The position numbers are program-made. DNA of 64,000 nt from Octopus sinensis (taxonomy: Eukaryota), in contig NC_043013.1 of assembly GCF_006345805.1 (NCBI RefSeq), positions 42,904,001-42,968,000 on the forward strand, given 5' to 3'. Positions 876-18,800 of this stretch are shown here, in pieces. Numbering within the stretch: the stretch's first letter is position 1; every line of letters starts with the position of its first letter.

Positions 876-3800
876 ATACAGACACAAAAACCTATCTGCA
901 TTTACATATCTATTAGTTAAAAGACAGCATCAAAGTACATTAGAATGATGTTGCCGTCTTCCTAGTTAGCAAAGCATACTGAATGCTCCACAACATAAGT
1001 TTCTTACCAATACTATCAAATTAATATTGCATGTAATGGAAATATGATGATGAAAGAAGCTTACCTGTTGTAAAGATGTGTTTATGTAGAAGTGATTTAT
1101 TATCACCTTTCAGGAATAAATGAATACAAAAGACACTAATTTCAAATGAAGATATTGGTTATGACGATAAATGGATTACCTAAACTAGCTAACTGTCACT
1201 GCACATCAGCAATGTATGACTAACACTTATGACGAAAGATGTACAGAAATACAGGAACTATAGTCTTCATGAAGCTAAAAAGAGGTCAGCAAGCAATGTG
1301 GAATTCCCTAAATGGTAACTGCTAATTTAGCAGGAACATGGCTGGAATACGAACACAATTAACTTAGTCTTCTGGTTTTCCAAACATCTTCCAATCTGTA
1401 TCTTGTCAGAAAAATTATTAATTATCTAACATCCACTGAGTCATGTCTATATTCTTGGGGACTCAGGATCCCCACCTCCTCTGCTTCAGGTGTTTGTTGT
1501 CATCTTCATCCAAAAAGACATTTTTGGTTCTTGACATGGGTTAATCTGTTCTTGTAGTTAATCTGTCACTAATTCGGTAATCACATCTAACATTGAGCAT
1601 GCGTAATAACACAGTCAAGCCCCAAACAATTTGCTGGCCTCTTTTTATTTCATGAACTATAGTTTATAATAACCAAGTAAAATATGATGAATATTTACTA
1701 ATATAAGTAGTGCAACATTAACTACCAACTATTCATATTGGGATCACCACATGCCCCCACCCAAAACACTACATTAATCTGTTAAGAGACTATAGCAAAT
1801 AAACATGGAGGAAACAGGCTTTAACGAGAAACTAACGGAAAGATATCTTGACATGTTTAGGTCAGTTATGGCCCAGGCTATGTTGTACTTACTTGTACCA
1901 CCACAGTACAATCATTATAGTATATTTTTATGCTTTCTGAAGACTAGAGAGATGTCTACCATATTGTTAGTAGTCTGGAATTCAACCCCACACTCAAACC
2001 AGATATATGCCCACGCTCACACATTCTGTTTTAAAATAACTCACGATTAGCCACAAGAGGATGCTTGAAGACAGGTTAGCTTAAGGTTCAAGAAAATCTG
2101 TCCCCTTTGGCAGTTGTAGACCTCACTTTCAACAAAGGTATCAACATCTGTTACCGAGAAGTAAGATCATTTAACTAATGACATCTTTGAATCAAAGCAG
2201 TGGGAAAGATGACATGAAAACCAACCTCTTCGACTTTACATCTTTATCATCTTTCTTTTCATCAGCCTTCTTCTCAGTTTGCCCTCCTTCTGTTTTACCT
2301 TTAGCCCTTTCTTCAACTTTGCTTCCATCTGTTTTCTTCACTTCAGTTTTGCCACTCACTTTGTCCATTGATGCGTTGTCCGTTTTATTATTTGTCTTTG
2401 ATGCCACAATATCAGCATCTAAATCATTCTGTGTATCATCAACATGCAGAATCAATGATGCATTTTCTTCACTCTTTCGAGCGATGGATGTGTCCATGTT
2501 GATTGTGTCTTCTAATGTTAATGGAGCTATGCAAGGAACACTGGTAGGTGTTGGAGGTAAACTGTCTGAGAAAGATGCAATGACCACTTCATCTTTAAGT
2601 TCATTAGAATTTAGTGGTAGAGGGGTAATTCTCACACTGGCTGATGAAGACTTTTCGCTATTTTCTTCTTTTATATTATTCTCTGTTGATGAAGACGACT
2701 GTTCTGGCGGTGCTACAGAAAGTTAATTTAGAATGAAATAGTTGACAGGAAATGAACATTTGTTAAATTTCACTCCACAACAGACTGTGCTGTGTTGAGA
2801 GTTTAAATAGAAAATATAGAAAGAAATAAAGAAAACATTACTAATAAAAGCTTTTAGTCTAGTAATCCTACAGGATCAACAGACTATAAGCCCTAAAGCT
2901 GAAATATGGATAATAATTATATTTCACATAGAAACTTTTGTGTCAAATTTTCACTTCATATGTCTTCAGTGGTATTGCTCTCAATACACATACAAAAGTT
3001 ATTTAGACAGATCAAAATATACCACTTGTACAATGGCAAGCAATTTGATCAGAGACATAATAAAATAACTGTGCTAAGGTTTGAAACTCATCACCAAGTC
3101 AACAGTTGTTCAGAAACCTAACTTCTCAGTCAAACTTCCTGTAAATTATATTACATTATTTTCCACTGAACCAGAAGGAACAGAGTATTCTGTAGCATTA
3201 AATGGATGAGAGTTGAATGAGCCCCTGAACAGGATGTCAGTCAGTTGCCAGCCAGATCTGTAGATGTTGAGCTTTTCTCTACATCTAGAAGAACTGAGGC
3301 CCATGAAAGTCTGCCGCCCAAATATAATGAAATACTTGAAGGACGAGCTGGTCTTGTAATGAATTTTCACTGAAGCTATTTTGCATCTCGAATGCAAACA
3401 CACAAACACACACATAATTGAGTGGCACATCTAATCAGTCGCAAGCGTATGAACCACGTCTCTATATAATATTTTGATGCACCGATTTCTACTGAACTTT
3501 CTCTTTCACAGTTGCACACTTTGTTACAAGGCACAGATGGAGTTGTTCTCCAGTGAAGTGCTGTTACAAGACACAACTAAGACCTAGCCTCATGCACAAT
3601 ACCTTAGGAGAACAGCGTAATTGCTGACAAATTCACACAGTCACTGACTCCCAAGTTGTGCTACATATAAGGATCAAAGTAGTGGTTAACAGAGAGCAAT
3701 GAATCAAGATTTCTTCCCTTTATTTCCAGTTTTCAACGTCCTTTGACTAAACTGGAACAATTTTTTTGAAAACAAACATACATAAATGTACAAAAGATAT

Positions 3801-15800: not shown

Positions 15801-18800
15801 AACTCAAAAGCATTTCTATGACATGAGCATCACATTCCTGTGTTTGGCCTATATGGTTCATAATAAAATCAATTCTTGCTCATATTGCAGTCAAGACTCA
15901 TCTTAGGAAACTCCGAGTGGTGTAACTTCGGTATATGTACCGGATACATTTCAAGAAAGTGCTTTTTTTATATATGGGGTGATTAGGGTTAGAGTTAGAG
16001 GCGGGAGAAAAGGGTTTCTGTTATCTTCAGAAATGTAAACAAAGTCACGTGTGTACCTATACCGAAGCATCGCCCTCCGAGTTCTTGAAAATCTTGTCGT
16101 AAGACGGGGAACTGTAACAGGAAACTGGTTATAATTGAGATACAGTCCAACGGACTTGTTTTTTTTTTCATAGAAACACAAAACAGCATGACTGTGTTTT
16201 TGAGAAACTCGCTTTACAACCACCTGGCTTCGGGTTCAATGACACTGCACGGTACCTCAGGCACGTGTCTTCTATTATGGCCCGGGCCGACTAAAGCCGC
16301 ACCATATGGGCGATGCTTCGGTATATGTGCGCACGTGACTTTGTTTACATTTCTGAAGATAACAGAAACCCTTTTCTCCCACACCTAACCCTAACCCCCC
16401 ATATATAAAAAAAAAAACACTTTTCGAAATGTATCCGGTACTTACACCGGTACATATACCGAAGGTTCACCCACCATATGTATCTGTGTGAGTTTTTTTT
16501 CTCTCTCTCTCTTTTTTTTTTTTGGTTTCTCTACTACTGCTTGACAACCGGTGATTTGTTTACGTCCCCTCTAACTTATTGGGTCAGCAAAATTGCTATT
16601 GGATAAGTATAAGATTTTAAAAACAAGTACTCGGGTCGATTTGTTCGACTAAACTCTTCAATGTGATATCCCAGCATGTCTGTAGTAAGTAAAAGATATG
16701 TTACAAAGACTACTCTTATAAAAATAACTATTTTTAAACACAAAGCGGACCTTGGCTCGAGTTCATATCCTTTCCATTCTGGAGCCGACGGGACTATCCA
16801 GAAGTTATGGGAAGAGACCAGATAGTCTTATTGTTTGCCCCATCTAGGGCGTGACAGGTAGTGACTCCTTTGCTCCTACCCACATAATGAATGCTGCGGT
16901 AAATGGGAGGGTCACTGCTTCCGTAGCCGAACGGAACAAAATCCTTAAGTATCGGGATTTGTCGGCGAACCTCTTATTCCAGCCGGAGGTGTTTGAGACA
17001 TTTGGAGGGGCTGGGCAGTTAACAACGAAGTTCTTGGTTATCGTTGGCGACTCGCCTTACCGTCGTGATCTCAGGTGATGCCTGTGAGAGTGCTTGGCTG
17101 TTCCAATGACTTAGCTTCGCCATCGCCCGCGCTAATTCCGTGTGTGTGTTGGCTTGCTTCAATAGGTTCCGTTGAACCTTGTAATGTTCGACCAATTGAA
17201 ACACCTAATGTTGAACTGGTGTTTTATACCTTCTTTCTTTCTCGTTTTTTGGCTTTTTTCTTTCTTTAGTTTTGTATTATATATGTAATTATATATAGTG
17301 TTGTATATGTAATTACTAAATTCGGATCTTTTCACTTTGACCGGCAGATTTTTAAAACAATTTCTTTGTAATCAAACTTCGTATACTGGTAGAATGTATT
17401 ACATAAAACATCTTTTTCTCTTGGCTTTCTTGAGAAAATTCTGTAGTTTGTAAGCTATTTGTTGTTTAATTTCTTGCATTTCGGCAATTTCAACCAATCA
17501 ATGACGTCTAATGAGGTGAATACAATTTCTACGGTTGTTTGTCAACAACAATTATTTGCGGTGTCATATCAGTTTGTTACTGTTATTTATGAGAAAAAAA
17601 GATACCCTTCCCCCACCCCTAATCCCACATATATAAAAAAATTAAAATTTTACGGAAAGAGACGATCTTCAAATGTAAACAAATACACGTGTGTGGCCAT
17701 AAACTGAGGGGTCAGTCGTAAACAGAGCTGGATAGCAAAACCGTTCCCTCTTTAGTGTCCACCTGACACAATCCTAATGCATGTATTTTATTCAGCAACA
17801 AGCTCTGGAGAAGACAACTCTTCTTCTGCAGTTGGTACTCTCATGTAAAGATGTGTACTTGGTACATCATGTTGACATGTAATTTAAAGAAAGTCTTGAA
17901 AGAAAAATAGCCTTTTCAGTTTAACTCCAGCAATCCTGAGCTACTGTCCAGATGTCATATCAATGGCCACAGAAAAATACAGTGAATCCTGAAAGTGTTT
18001 AAGCTGAAATGGCATATCTGAGTAATGCATGGAATAGAAACATCCCTTTCAGCACAAGTCAGAATGATGGCTTCAATTGCGTAGAACATAAGAGTTTTGA
18101 CAGGTAATCTTGTATTATTACATAGAGTTTTCGTGTATCCAAATTTTGAAACACATTGGATGCTCCTAATTTCAGTTGATCATGAGGGGTGCCGGTGGGT
18201 TGAAGAGAATTAAAATACAGTGTCACCAGAAATCATACAACTACATTTACCTCTATCCCAGCTTCTACCCATCTGCAAACATTCCTTCTACACTCTTATG
18301 AAATTAGCCATCTTCTTCCCCAGCCTTGATCCACAGTTTATATACTATCATATCCTCATCTTCTTGTACCTTGGGAGTATGCTCTGGCACCCTGTCACCA
18401 ATATCTTTATCTCCCTTCCAGCAACTCTCACCCATCCTTGCATAATGTGTGATGGCCATTTATCTCCTCTACAGCAAGACGTCTGTCCCTCTATCATATT
18501 TCAGCCTTCAACATCTGGCATAAAGCCACCTCCCCTTCTCTCAAACACACTCCTACTCAGTTGAGGGGGATTTTTCTTTTATTTATTTTGTTTTGCAAGT
18601 TGGTGACGTCTCTAGTGCCAGTGTCACAAGAAAAGCACCCAAGGCATTCTGATCCTGTCAAACCATCCAACCCATGCCAGTACTAAAAATAGACATTGAA
18701 TGATAATAACAATGACAGTGTGAACTGACTTGTACCCTCTGGACTGGGCTGTATCTGTTGAACGATGGTAGCATTAATATCCTGCACGTAAGGAAAAGCC

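What the first reader, a model, noticed from the sequence alone, without database searches (positions are those of the whole stretch)
2226..15805. Tandem SAFB duplicate with a dead SAP module but intact downstream exons
All disabling lesions lie in exons 1, 2 and 5. Exons 6, 7 and 8 (764 nt) have diverged substantially yet remain open, with intact splice sites and net length differences of 3, 0 and 111 nt. This fits a recent pseudogene, or a paralog initiating at the Met in exon 6 (KPSDMLAD) to make a SAP-less, RNA-binding-only SAFB. SAFB proteins tie chromatin (SAP) to RNA (RRM) and suppress splicing into transposon RNA, so such a paralog in a TE-rich genome could be a competitor or a specialised factor. 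The RRM exons lie outside the window.
Basis: partly seen in the sequence, partly recalled or inferred. Interest (0 to 1): 0.75.

Follow-up and report, generated by a model that had tools for sequence, protein, structure and literature searches.

The report
Octopus SAFB copy lacking SAP exons
Next to a complete octopus SAFB gene lies a second, older SAFB copy whose DNA-binding (SAP) exons are broken but whose later exons are still kept readable, so it probably makes a protein that binds RNA without the usual chromatin anchor.

Summary
On the minus strand, copy A (ATG 51975, stop 19862, 20 coding exons) is a complete SAFB gene. Copy B (15803-1017) is collinear with A's exons 1-8. B's exon 1 has lost its ATG and carries a TAG. 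Exons 2 and 5 each have a 1-nt deletion, and exons 3-4 are absent. Exons 6-8 (243+34+487 = 764 nt) are open with GT/AG sites intact.

B is not a recent pseudogene. Frameshifting indels are absent from exons 6-8 (6.4 expected, P 0.0016). Its exon 8, RRM and C-terminus belong to an old divergent SAFB lineage, also seen in Octopus vulgaris and Argonauta.

A RefSeq protein (isoform X6) joins A's exons 1-5 to B's exons 6-8 and to off-window exons holding a remodelled RRM. However, the CpG footprint shows an undepleted island at B's own 5' end and a depleted, CpG-hypermutable body. That pattern fits a separate transcription unit.

B's own mRNA would have its first AUG in exon 5 (8968), in frame with exon 6, giving a SAP-less protein. 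I favour this (0.4) over SAP borrowed from A by read-through (0.3) and a decaying pseudogene (0.15). No RNA data could be checked.

The parts
15500..15803 (-). Copy B exon 1 remnant plus 5' flank, homologous to A 51841-52155. The ATG is lost (17-nt deletion, 8-nt insertion near 15624-15618). There is an in-frame TAG at 15529-15527. The donor GT is intact. No ATG occurs in any frame in these 304 nt.
9728..9781 (-). Copy B exon 2 remnant with a 1-nt deletion near 9746 (frameshift). Splice sites are intact. It lies in a tract about 98% identical to A.
9440..9662 (-). Place where exons 3 and 4 (29 + 55 nt in A) are missing from copy B. A has about 2.8 kb here (44687-47533).
8960..8990 (-). Copy B exon 5 remnant with a 1-nt deletion near 8979. 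Downstream of it lies ATG 8968-8966 (context GACAACATGG), in frame with exon 6. This would be the first AUG of a B-own mRNA.
7780..8022 (-). Copy B exon 6: 243 nt, open, AG/GT intact. It encodes P0001 residues 103-183 exactly.
6685..6718 (-). Copy B exon 7: 34 nt, open, AG/GT intact. It is an exact match to P0001.
2226..2712 (-). Copy B exon 8: 487 nt, open, AG/GT intact. It encodes P0001 residues 195-356 exactly. It holds one unit of the 48-nt repeat that A has 3.2 times.
14800..17600 (.). CpG-undepleted island (o/e 0.63-1.16 in 400-nt windows; window mean 0.44) over B's exon 1 remnant and the gap up to A's 3' end. In the block homologous to A, 19 CpGs are shared out of 27 (A) and 25 (B).
1001..14000 (-). 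Copy B body: CpG-depleted (o/e 0.07-0.58 per kb), like A's body.
8044..8616 (-). The 3' 570 nt of B intron 5, 94-100% identical to A 41960-42545. This is more alike than exon 6 itself. It is a conversion-like tract ending just before the exon 6 acceptor.
2143..2442 (-). The last part of exon 8 plus about 90 nt of intron 8, 97-100% identical to A 36324-36593. It is a conversion-like tract.
42969..51975 (-). Copy A exons 1-5 (51975-51841, 47653-47599, 46302-46274, 45768-45714, 43000-42969). They encode P0001 residues 1-102 exactly and form the SAP module that the RefSeq model joins to B exon 6.
19862..51975 (-). Copy A: a complete SAFB gene with 20 coding exons (P0005, isoform X4). All exons match exactly, except that the protein lacks 29 residues of the exon 8 repeat.

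Best explanation
Copy B is the Octopus sinensis member of an old, divergent SAFB paralog lineage. I call this lineage B-type. It has a short acidic exon 8, a remodelled RRM, no Lys/Ser/Arg-rich linker, and a long C-terminal helix. B sits directly downstream of a canonical-type SAFB gene in a tandem array that has been patched by gene conversion.

B is still a transcription unit of its own. Its SAP-coding exons are dead and now serve as an untranslated leader. Translation starts at the first AUG, in exon 5 (8968), giving MDEKESETSD... The product is a SAP-less protein made of:
- the acidic disordered region encoded by exons 6-8;
- the divergent RRM;
- the long helix and the Arg/Gly-rich tail.

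Such a protein could bind RNA, and could associate with the other SAFB copies through the shared C-terminal helix, without the SAP tether to DNA. It would therefore act as a modulator or competitor of the canonical copies.

Shown: the lesions, the maintained frame of exons 6-8, the old ancestry, and the CpG footprint.
Inferred: the start site of transcription, the start codon, and the function.
For: 1. Frame maintenance.
- Exons 6-8 have 0 frameshifting indels and 0 stops.
- From the intron indel rate (91 indels in 4523 aligned nt, 76 of them not multiples of 3), 6.4 frameshifts are expected on B's lineage in 764 nt, P(0) = 0.0016.
- The 5 small disabling lesions all fall in 222 of the 986 coding nt held in the window, P = 5.8e-4.
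- P(no stop) under neutral change is about 0.13.

2. CpG footprint of an own transcription unit.
- CpG o/e is 0.44 for the window and 0.07-0.58 per kb in both gene bodies.
- It is 0.76-0.91 over 15-18 kb (B's 5' end and the gap) and 0.86-1.25 in 8 of the 9 kb-windows of 50-59 kb at A's 5' end (the ninth, 55001-56000, is 0.36).
- In the exon 1 block, 19 CpGs are shared out of 27 (A) and 25 (B). In the body blocks, 5 are shared out of 37 (A) and 25 (B). Fisher p = 5e-6.
- In the body, B has TG/CA where A has CpG 15 times, and the reverse occurs 11 times. B's body has therefore been as CpG-hypermutable as A's.
- In octopus, methylation sits on the bodies of constitutively expressed genes and spares start sites, promoters, intergenic DNA and transposons (PMC9476566, passages).

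3. A usable start codon.
- There is no ATG in the 304 nt of B's exon 1 block or in exon 2.
- The first ATG is at 8968 in exon 5, with A at -3 and G at +4, in frame with exon 6.
- All splice sites of the dead exons are intact.

4. A precedent in the same array. RefSeq protein P0004 (838 aa) lacks SAP and starts at an internal Met of exon 4.

5. Downstream exons exist and are open in P0001.
- Pfam RRM_1 scores 33.7 bits against a cut-off of 20.7.
- AlphaFold2 gives a beta-alpha-beta-beta-alpha-beta fold at residues 376-450 (block pLDDT 64-87) and a helix at 467-590 (pLDDT 92-97).
Against: - The only database protein that contains B's exons 6-8 (P0001; 1 of 12 hits at 100%) starts with A's exons 1-5. 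No SAP-less B protein was found in that search.
- The CpG footprint integrates the germline over long times. An unmethylated gap is also what plain intergenic DNA would show, and part of the gap is transposon-like.
- The start site of transcription is unknown. Homology with A ends only 180 nt upstream of the old ATG, and an inverted-repeat element lies just beyond it.
- dN/dS for A against B (0.43) is not low. It is no lower than in the dead exons (0.34; 9 non-synonymous and 7 synonymous changes in 64 codons).
- Exons 6-8 encode a region predicted to be disordered (pLDDT 30-49), so constraint on its sequence is weak.
- B's RRM has changed at 45 of 77 positions relative to A's (32 of 77 identical). 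That could also mean decay of RNA binding.
Confidence: 0.4

Rival explanations
1. Borrowed SAP module. Transcription starts at copy A's promoter, runs past A's poly(A) sites, and A's exon 5 donor (42969) is spliced to B's exon 6 acceptor (8022). This skips A's exons 6-20 and B's dead exons. The two tandem genes would then work as one unit with one SAP module and two alternative bodies, and B's product keeps a SAP domain.
For: - RefSeq protein P0001 ('SAFB-like transcription modulator isoform X6', 836 aa) is encoded exactly by A's exons 1-5 (residues 1-102) and B's exons 6-8 (residues 103-356).
- A second RefSeq protein, P0006 (isoform X3), runs through A's exons 1-16 and then continues with P0001's C-terminal sequence, which is not encoded in the window.
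- A's exon 5 ends in phase 0 and B's exon 6 starts in phase 0.
- B's exon 6 acceptor and the 570 nt before it are 94-100% identical to A's, so the two acceptors look alike to the splicing machinery.
- The part of exon 6 upstream of its Met is open and 46 of 49 residues match the O. vulgaris relative.
Against: - The junction needs a 34-kb intron that skips 15 exons and several AATAAA signals after A's stop codon.
- The 14.8-17.6 kb gap keeps its CpGs, unlike every other intron of A and B. That argues against regular transcription through it in the germline.
- From my own knowledge, not from a call: automatic gene models across tandem paralogs are often chimeric, because junction reads and protein alignments map ambiguously. 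The last 19 nt of exon 5 (TACAGACAACATGGATGAG) are identical in A and B.
Confidence: 0.3
2. Unprocessed pseudogene in early decay. The whole of copy B is no longer functional, whether transcribed or not. The 5' exons were hit first, and exons 6-8 are still open thanks to past selection and luck.
For: - There are five disabling lesions plus the loss of two exons in the 5' module.
- dN/dS is 0.43 across exons 6-8.
- Against the nearest relative (O. vulgaris P0002), exons 6-8 differ at about 5% of residues. The A-type pair P0005/P0009 is almost identical.
- B's RRM sits on a terminal branch of 0.34-0.36 changes per site, against 0 for P0002.
- P(no stop) by chance is 0.13.
Against: - If all exons had decayed at the rate of exons 1, 2 and 5 (5 lesions in 222 nt), about 17 lesions would be expected in the 764 nt of exons 6-8. 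None is seen. Clustering P = 5.8e-4 and frameshift P = 0.0016.
- A further 480 residues off-window are open in P0001.
- B's body kept losing CpGs as fast as A's. In octopus that goes with transcription.
Confidence: 0.15
3. Assembly or annotation artefact. The lesions are sequencing errors, and B is an ordinary complete SAFB gene.
For: The two single-base deletions (exons 2 and 5) are of the kind that long-read assemblies leave behind. This comes from my own knowledge; no read data were available. The window's copy A also differs from P0005 by 87 nt of a 48-nt repeat.
Against: - The 17-nt deletion of the ATG, the 8-nt insertion, the TAG substitution and the absence of exons 3-4 (about 2.8 kb in A against about 220 nt in B) are not typical base-calling errors.
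- The RefSeq model avoids B's exons 1-5 and uses A's. That fits their being broken in the annotated assembly too.
Confidence: 0.05

Closest known systems
Copy A in the same window (RefSeq 'scaffold attachment factor B1 isoform X4', P0005)
   Same: Same exon order, phases and splice sites for exons 1-8. Introns align at 70-100% identity. The C-terminal halves group together in the tree.
   Different: - A has an intact SAP module and exons 3-4.
- A has 3.2 units of the exon 8 repeat, a canonical RRM (71 of 77 residues identical to Argonauta's) and a Lys/Ser/Arg-rich linker.
- B has dead SAP exons, one repeat unit and no linker. Only 32 of 77 RRM residues match A's.
Octopus vulgaris 'scaffold attachment factor B1 isoform X2' (P0002)
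   Same: It is the nearest relative of B: 96% identical over exon 8 and 95% over exons 6 and 8. It has the same derived RRM residues (RCHAFV, VNG) and also lacks the linker.
   Different: - It has a SAP N-terminus of its own (78% to A's), found in no other protein among the 22 hits.
- It is only 60 of 77 identical to B in the RRM, and 67% over residues 357-520. That is too different for a plain orthologue of a species that split about 2.5 Mya (PMC10700109, passages).
Argonauta hians second SAFB paralog (hypothetical protein Ahia01_001224500, P0013)
   Same: It shares 8 derived RRM residues with at least one of the two B-type proteins, 6 of them with both. At these positions all 11 canonical sequences agree with each other. 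They include RNP1 Tyr>His and Gly>Ala. It has no linker, and its C-terminus falls in the same clade (98/95).
   Different: It has an intact SAP domain. RRM identity to B is only 32 of 77. The RRM clade has weak support (77/84) and joins long branches.
Vertebrate SAFB1, SAFB2 and SLTM; Drosophila Saf-B
   Same: N-terminal SAP, central RRM and a Glu/Arg-rich C-terminal repeat (PMC10901741, passage of section 5). The same order is seen in copy A and in P0001.
   Different: [quoted passage not shown] Octopus sinensis has at least five distinct copies among the proteins found (A, B, and P0004, P0008 and P0010). No SAP-less paralog is described in the passages read.
Read-through ('conjoined') transcripts of tandem genes
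   Same: The RefSeq proteins P0001 and P0006 start in copy A and end in copy B.
   Different: Here the downstream gene has lost its own coding 5' exons, so the chimera would be the only route to a SAP-bearing product. Whether the chimera exists as RNA is untested. The term itself is recalled, not taken from a call.

Membership tests
SAFB family (SAFB1/SAFB2/SLTM/Saf-B) | N-terminal SAP domain (Pfam PF02037) encoded by the gene itself | tested here: not met
   B's exon 1 lacks the ATG and has a TAG inside the SAP region. The SAP hit in P0001 (39.2 bits, cut-off 23.9) comes from copy A's exon 1.
SAFB family (SAFB1/SAFB2/SLTM/Saf-B) | Central RRM (Pfam PF00076) | tested here: met
   This was tested on the RefSeq protein, not on window DNA, because the exons are off-window. 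P0001 residues 377-446 score 33.7 bits for RRM_1 (cut-off 20.7); copy A scores 48 bits. The model shows a beta-alpha-beta-beta-alpha-beta fold with pLDDT 64-87. The best PDB sequence matches are generic RRMs (cS22, Sex-lethal; E 2e-6 to 6e-6).
SAFB family (SAFB1/SAFB2/SLTM/Saf-B) | Glu/Arg-rich helical region and Arg/Gly-rich tail after the RRM | tested here: met
   This too is off-window. P0001 residues 467-590 form one long helix (pLDDT 92-97) and align with the MKLEKEKLLRYR repeat of copies A, C and D.
SAFB family (SAFB1/SAFB2/SLTM/Saf-B) | Descent: exon-by-exon collinearity with a bona fide SAFB gene | tested here: met
   B 15803-1017 is collinear with A 52155-35150 and has the same splice positions for exons 1, 2, 5, 6, 7 and 8.
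SAFB family (SAFB1/SAFB2/SLTM/Saf-B) | Binding of purine-rich or transposon RNA and suppression of splicing into it | not testable with these tools
   The function is known from human, mouse and fly (PMC10901741, abstract and passages). Nothing here tests it for octopus.
Unprocessed pseudogene | Disabling lesions spread over the coding exons at the neutral rate | tested here: not met
   The 5 lesions all lie in 222 nt, and none lies in the 764 nt of exons 6-8. P = 5.8e-4, and frameshift P = 0.0016.
Read-through chimera of tandem genes | RNA that joins exons of A to exons of B | not testable with these tools
   Only protein records (P0001, P0006) show the join.

The most novel reading that the evidence does not exclude
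Octopods carry an ancient second SAFB lineage with a remodelled RRM. In O. sinensis this lineage has shed its SAP exons yet stays expressed from its own promoter. The result is a natural 'untethered' SAFB that can still pair with the canonical copies through the shared C-terminal helix. Together with occasional read-through from copy A, the locus could then produce both tethered (SAP+) and untethered (SAP-) forms of the same divergent RNA binder, in a genome that is rich in intronic transposons.
Probability: 0.3. Interest if true: 0.65.

Novelty: new variant of a known kind. Interest (0 to 1): 0.45.

Why it matters
SAFB proteins keep transposon sequences inside introns from being spliced into mRNAs. 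The paper that showed this states that invertebrates have one SAFB gene (PMC10901741, passages). The proteins found here show at least five distinct SAFB copies in Octopus sinensis. They also show an old second lineage with a changed RNA-binding surface that reaches back to the split from Argonauta.

A copy that keeps its RNA-binding and self-association parts but has lost the DNA/scaffold anchor would be a natural separation-of-function allele. It would make it possible to ask what the SAP tether contributes.

The locus is also a clear case of a tandem array evolving by conversion and exon-block exchange. For annotators, it is a warning that models across such arrays may be chimeras.

Two full-text searches ('SAFB' + 'octopus'; 'scaffold attachment factor B' + 'cephalopod') found no paper on SAFB genes in cephalopods.

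Tried and rejected
- Looked for B's exons 3 and 4 on both strands of 1-17000: only noise.
- Looked for B's exon 9 and RRM exons in 1-2300 by tblastn and by peptide words: none.
- Tested whether the very alike intron-5 tract is an RNA gene. Rfam at gathering score found 0 matches in the whole window. At E<=1 in 7700-8700 there was one weak miRNA-family hit on the other strand (E 0.67, 21.6 bits against 87). ARAGORN found 0 tRNAs. 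The fold z-score was -1.1. I read the tract as conversion-like, cause unknown.
- dN/dS alone does not separate the hypotheses (0.43 in live exons, 0.34 in dead exons).
That is too few to decide.
Accession numbers, gene identifiers and the support of the RefSeq models therefore stayed unknown.
It ran later on the alignment of 11 database proteins.
- I did not build or search a joined spliced model of copy B. Searches used one exon or regions of database proteins.
B's exons 9-20, the other copies and the O. vulgaris locus are unchecked at DNA level.
- Supplementary files of the three papers read were not opened. They may hold gene-level methylation or isoform tables that bear on B's expression.

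Full report
**What is in the window.**
The window has no N and is AT-rich (GC 0.30-0.41 per 2 kb). Comparing 1-17000 with the rest gives one collinear chain on the same strand: 1017-15803 matches 35150-52155, in blocks of 68-94% identity. The genes lie on the minus strand.

A search with the translation of a single exon (B's exon 8, 161 aa) returned 12 proteins, all cephalopod SAFB-family records. One of them, P0005 (Octopus sinensis 'scaffold attachment factor B1 isoform X4', 993 aa), is encoded exactly by 20 exons from ATG 51975 to stop 19862. The one exception is 29 residues of a repeat in exon 8. I call this copy A, and it is a complete SAFB gene with SAP and RRM domains. The window is therefore O. 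sinensis or something very close to it. It is not human.

I searched exon by exon. I did not build or search a joined spliced model of the second copy.

**The observation.**
Copy B (15803-1017) has counterparts of A's exons 1, 2, 5, 6, 7 and 8.
- Exon 1 has lost the ATG through a 17-nt deletion. It also has an 8-nt insertion and a TAG at 15529-15527 inside the SAP region.
- Exons 2 and 5 each have a 1-nt deletion.
- Exons 3 and 4 have no counterpart. Alignment scores are 14-16 on both strands, against 61-118 for exons 2, 5 and 7. Their joint 84 nt would be an in-frame loss.
- All GT/AG sites of the three broken exons are still there.
- Exons 6 (8022-7780), 7 (6718-6685) and 8 (2712-2226) are open and have intact splice sites. 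They add up to 764 nt and differ from A's by +3, 0 and -111 nt.

Most of the 111-nt difference is copy number of a 48-nt in-frame repeat: 3.2 units in A and one in B. No exon 9 or RRM exon of B lies in 1-2226.

**Is the open frame more than luck?**
- In 4523 aligned intron positions there are 91 indels, of which 15 are multiples of three.
- In exons 6-8, 7 of 7 gaps are multiples of three (5 of 5 if the repeat-array gaps count once).
- In exons 1, 2 and 5, 0 of 4 are.
- With half the intron indel rate assigned to B's lineage, 6.4 frameshifts are expected in 764 nt, P(0) = 0.0016.
- The five small disabling lesions all fall in 222 of the 986 coding nt in view, P = 5.8e-4.
- Freedom from stops alone is weak evidence (P about 0.13).
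- dN/dS of A against B is 0.32 for exon 6, 0.44 for the diverged part of exon 8 and 0.43 overall. The alignable codons of the dead exons give 0.34 (9 non-synonymous and 7 synonymous changes). This measure therefore does not discriminate.
- Exons 6-8 encode an acidic stretch that AlphaFold2 leaves disordered (pLDDT 30-49). Weak constraint on the residues is expected there. It is the frame, not the sequence, that has been kept.

**B is old, and the array is a patchwork.**
Identity between A and B runs from 70% to 100% in patches.
- The last 570 nt of intron 5 are 94-100% alike, more than exon 6 itself (88-92%).
- The end of exon 8 and the first ~90 nt of intron 8 are 97-100% alike.
- The exon 2 region is 98% alike.

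These look like conversion tracts. No RNA family or structure explains the intron tract.

At the protein level, of the 38 exon 8 positions where A and B differ:
- the other Octopus copies side with A at 31 to 38 of them;
- a distant cephalopod protein (P0011) sides with B at 10 and with A at 12.

B also keeps a 10-residue stretch that the outgroups have and the other Octopus copies lack.

Beyond the window, the protein that contains B's exons (P0001) has a remodelled RRM. Only 32 of 77 residues match A's, whereas A and Argonauta's canonical copy share 71 of 77. A search with that region found only P0001 and one O. vulgaris protein, P0002, as close matches among 4 hits.

A second Argonauta hians paralog (P0013) shares 8 derived residues with at least one of the B-type RRMs, 6 of them with both. 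At these positions all 11 canonical sequences agree. They include His and Ala in the motif I recall as RNP1 (RCYGFV becomes RCHAFV). The three sequences form one side of a branch in the best RRM tree, with weak support (77/84) and long branches.

In the C-terminal tree, B, P0002, P0013 and copies A, C and D form a clade (98/95), apart from copy E and the canonical Argonauta protein. Two things follow.
- B descends from a second SAFB lineage older than the Octopus-Argonauta split.
- Copies A, C and D look like hybrids, with a canonical front half and a B-type rear half.

'Recent duplicate of A' is therefore wrong for B's body.

**How could B be expressed?**
Two readings fit a live body without its own SAP coding.

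(a) *Borrowed SAP.* P0001 ('SAFB-like transcription modulator isoform X6') is encoded exactly by A's exons 1-5 (residues 1-102) and B's exons 6-8 (residues 103-356). P0006 (isoform X3) runs through A's exons 1-16 and then continues with P0001's C-terminal sequence, which is not encoded in the window. The A-exon-5 to B-exon-6 junction is phase-compatible. It needs a 34-kb intron, skipping of 15 exons and read-through of several AATAAA signals. From my own knowledge, such models across tandem paralogs are often chimeric.

(b) *Own promoter.* CpG observed/expected is 0.44 for the window and 0.07-0.58 per kb in both gene bodies. It is 0.86-1.25 in 8 of the 9 kb-windows at A's 5' end (50-59 kb; 55001-56000 is 0.36). 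It is 0.76-0.91 at 15-18 kb, that is, over B's exon 1 remnant and the gap up to A's 3' end.
- In the exon 1 block, 19 CpGs are shared out of 27 in A and 25 in B. That is close to the fraction expected from the block's 86% identity.
- In the body blocks only 5 are shared out of 37 and 25 (Fisher p = 5e-6).
- In the body, B shows TG/CA opposite an A CpG 15 times, and the reverse occurs 11 times.

In Octopus bimaculoides, methylation is confined to the bodies of constitutively expressed genes. It spares start sites, promoters, intergenic DNA and transposons (PMC9476566, passages). Since methylated CpGs mutate fast (established knowledge), I read the footprint as follows. B's body has been methylated, hence transcribed, about as long as A's. 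The gap between the two genes has not. That fits two transcription units better than regular read-through.

A B-own mRNA would have no ATG in the 304 nt of its exon 1 block or in exon 2. Its first AUG would be at 8968 in exon 5 (A at -3, G at +4), downstream of the exon 5 frameshift and in frame with exon 6. The product would start MDEKESETSD and lack SAP. Another copy in the array, P0004, is annotated without SAP and starts at an internal Met of exon 4.

**Weighing.**
I put 0.4 on the own-promoter, SAP-less reading and 0.3 on the borrowed-SAP reading. The two are not exclusive. I put 0.15 on a pseudogene in early decay and 0.05 on artefact.

Against my preferred reading:
- no SAP-less B protein is in the database search;
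- an unmethylated gap is also what plain intergenic DNA looks like;
- part of the gap is an inverted-repeat element;
- the start of transcription is unknown.

For the pseudogene:
- B's exons 6-8 differ from the O. vulgaris relative at about 5% of residues, while the A-type pair is nearly identical;
- B's RRM has a long terminal branch.

That last point is itself unexplained. The two species split about 2.5 Mya (PMC10700109, passages). P0001 and P0002 may therefore not be one-to-one orthologues. P0002 also has a SAP N-terminus of its own (78% to A's) that occurs in no other protein among 22 hits.

**Function (inferred).**
P0001 keeps several SAFB features:
- a recognisable RRM (33.7 bits; fold pLDDT 64-87);
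- a 124-residue helix (pLDDT 92-97) that aligns with the repeat of copies A, C and D.

I recall, from no call, that SAFB proteins associate through their C-terminal region. If so, a SAP-less B could bind RNA and join the other copies without the DNA tether. The link to transposon RNA rests on work in human, mouse and fly (PMC10901741, abstract and passages). It is untested here.

**Comparison and novelty.**
B is a SAFB-family gene by descent, and in its off-window part by domain content, but it fails the SAP criterion on its own exons. [quoted passage not shown] The proteins found here show at least five distinct copies in O. sinensis and two in Argonauta. Two full-text searches found nothing on SAFB in cephalopods. 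I rate it a new variant of a known kind, interest 0.45.

**What stayed unchecked.**
- All RNA evidence.
- B's exons 9-20 and the other copies at DNA level.
- The O. vulgaris locus.
- The support of the RefSeq models.
- The supplements of the papers.

Noticed in passing
window 19862-51975 (-): Copy A is a complete 20-exon SAFB gene. The window's exon 8 holds 87 nt (36882-36796) of a 48-nt repeat (3.2 units, 36791-36942) that RefSeq protein P0005 lacks. Other copies and species differ in unit number, so the repeat is length-variable.
   Followed up: partly
window 45714-45720 (-): A's exon 4 ends in tandem donors (GTAGTAAG). RefSeq isoforms differ by one Ser here (EDISK against EDIK).
   Followed up: partly
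window 8044-8616 and 41960-42545: The last 570 nt of intron 5 are 94-100% identical between the copies, more than the exon that follows. There is no Rfam match, and the fold z-score is -1.1. The cause is unknown; conversion is suspected.
   Followed up: yes
window 2143-2442 and 36324-36593: The end of exon 8 and about 90 nt of intron 8 are 97-100% identical between the copies. The encoded peptide (KKTDGSKVEERAKGKTEGGQTEKKADEKKDDKDVKSK) is invariant in 9 of the 10 Octopus proteins aligned; P0002 differs at one residue. The open frame runs on into the intron for 12 codons before a stop.
   Followed up: partly
window 10175-12920 (-): A degraded LTR-retrotransposon lies in B's intron 1, in gene orientation. 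It has a gag-like DUF7083 (36.6 bits) and weak RT and integrase fragments below the Pfam cut-offs. It is absent from A's intron 1.
   Followed up: partly
window 13884-14458 (-): Open frames with a reverse-transcriptase-like look lie in B's intron 1. Pfam gave no hit at E<=0.01.
   Followed up: partly
window 3822-4426 and 38311-38904: In intron 7, at about the same distance from exon 8, the two copies share a ~600-nt segment at 69-70% identity but in opposite orientation. This could be an inversion, or two insertions of one transposon family.
   Followed up: no
window 15929-16075 and 16308-16449: A pair of 150-nt inverted repeats (87% identical) lies just upstream of the point where B's homology with A ends. 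It looks like a foldback or MITE-like element and encloses a short repeat also found at 46463-46550 and 56389-56471.
   Followed up: partly
window 399-715, 6814-7317, 11923-12183, 23336-23764, 61063-61174: Copies of one short interspersed repeat family (69-87% alike) occur in both orientations, in introns of A and B and at the window start.
   Followed up: no
window 62265-62869 (-): Fragments of a PIF1-like helicase (Pif1 2B domain 43.6 bits; PIF1 17.9 bits, below cut-off) lie upstream of copy A. They are probably a Helitron remnant.
   Followed up: partly
whole window: There is a sharp CpG landscape. Gene bodies have o/e 0.0-0.58. The two 5' regions (15-18 kb and 50-59 kb) have 0.76-1.25. A's depleted domain ends near 17.6 kb, about 2.2 kb past its stop codon.
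   Followed up: yes
proteins P0004, P0005, P0008, P0009, P0010 (off-window): Copies A, C and D have a canonical front half (SAP to linker) but a B-type C-terminal half. Copy E and the canonical Argonauta protein have a different C-terminus. The array seems to have been built by exchange of exon blocks. P0011 (another cephalopod) contains two RRMs in tandem.
   Followed up: partly
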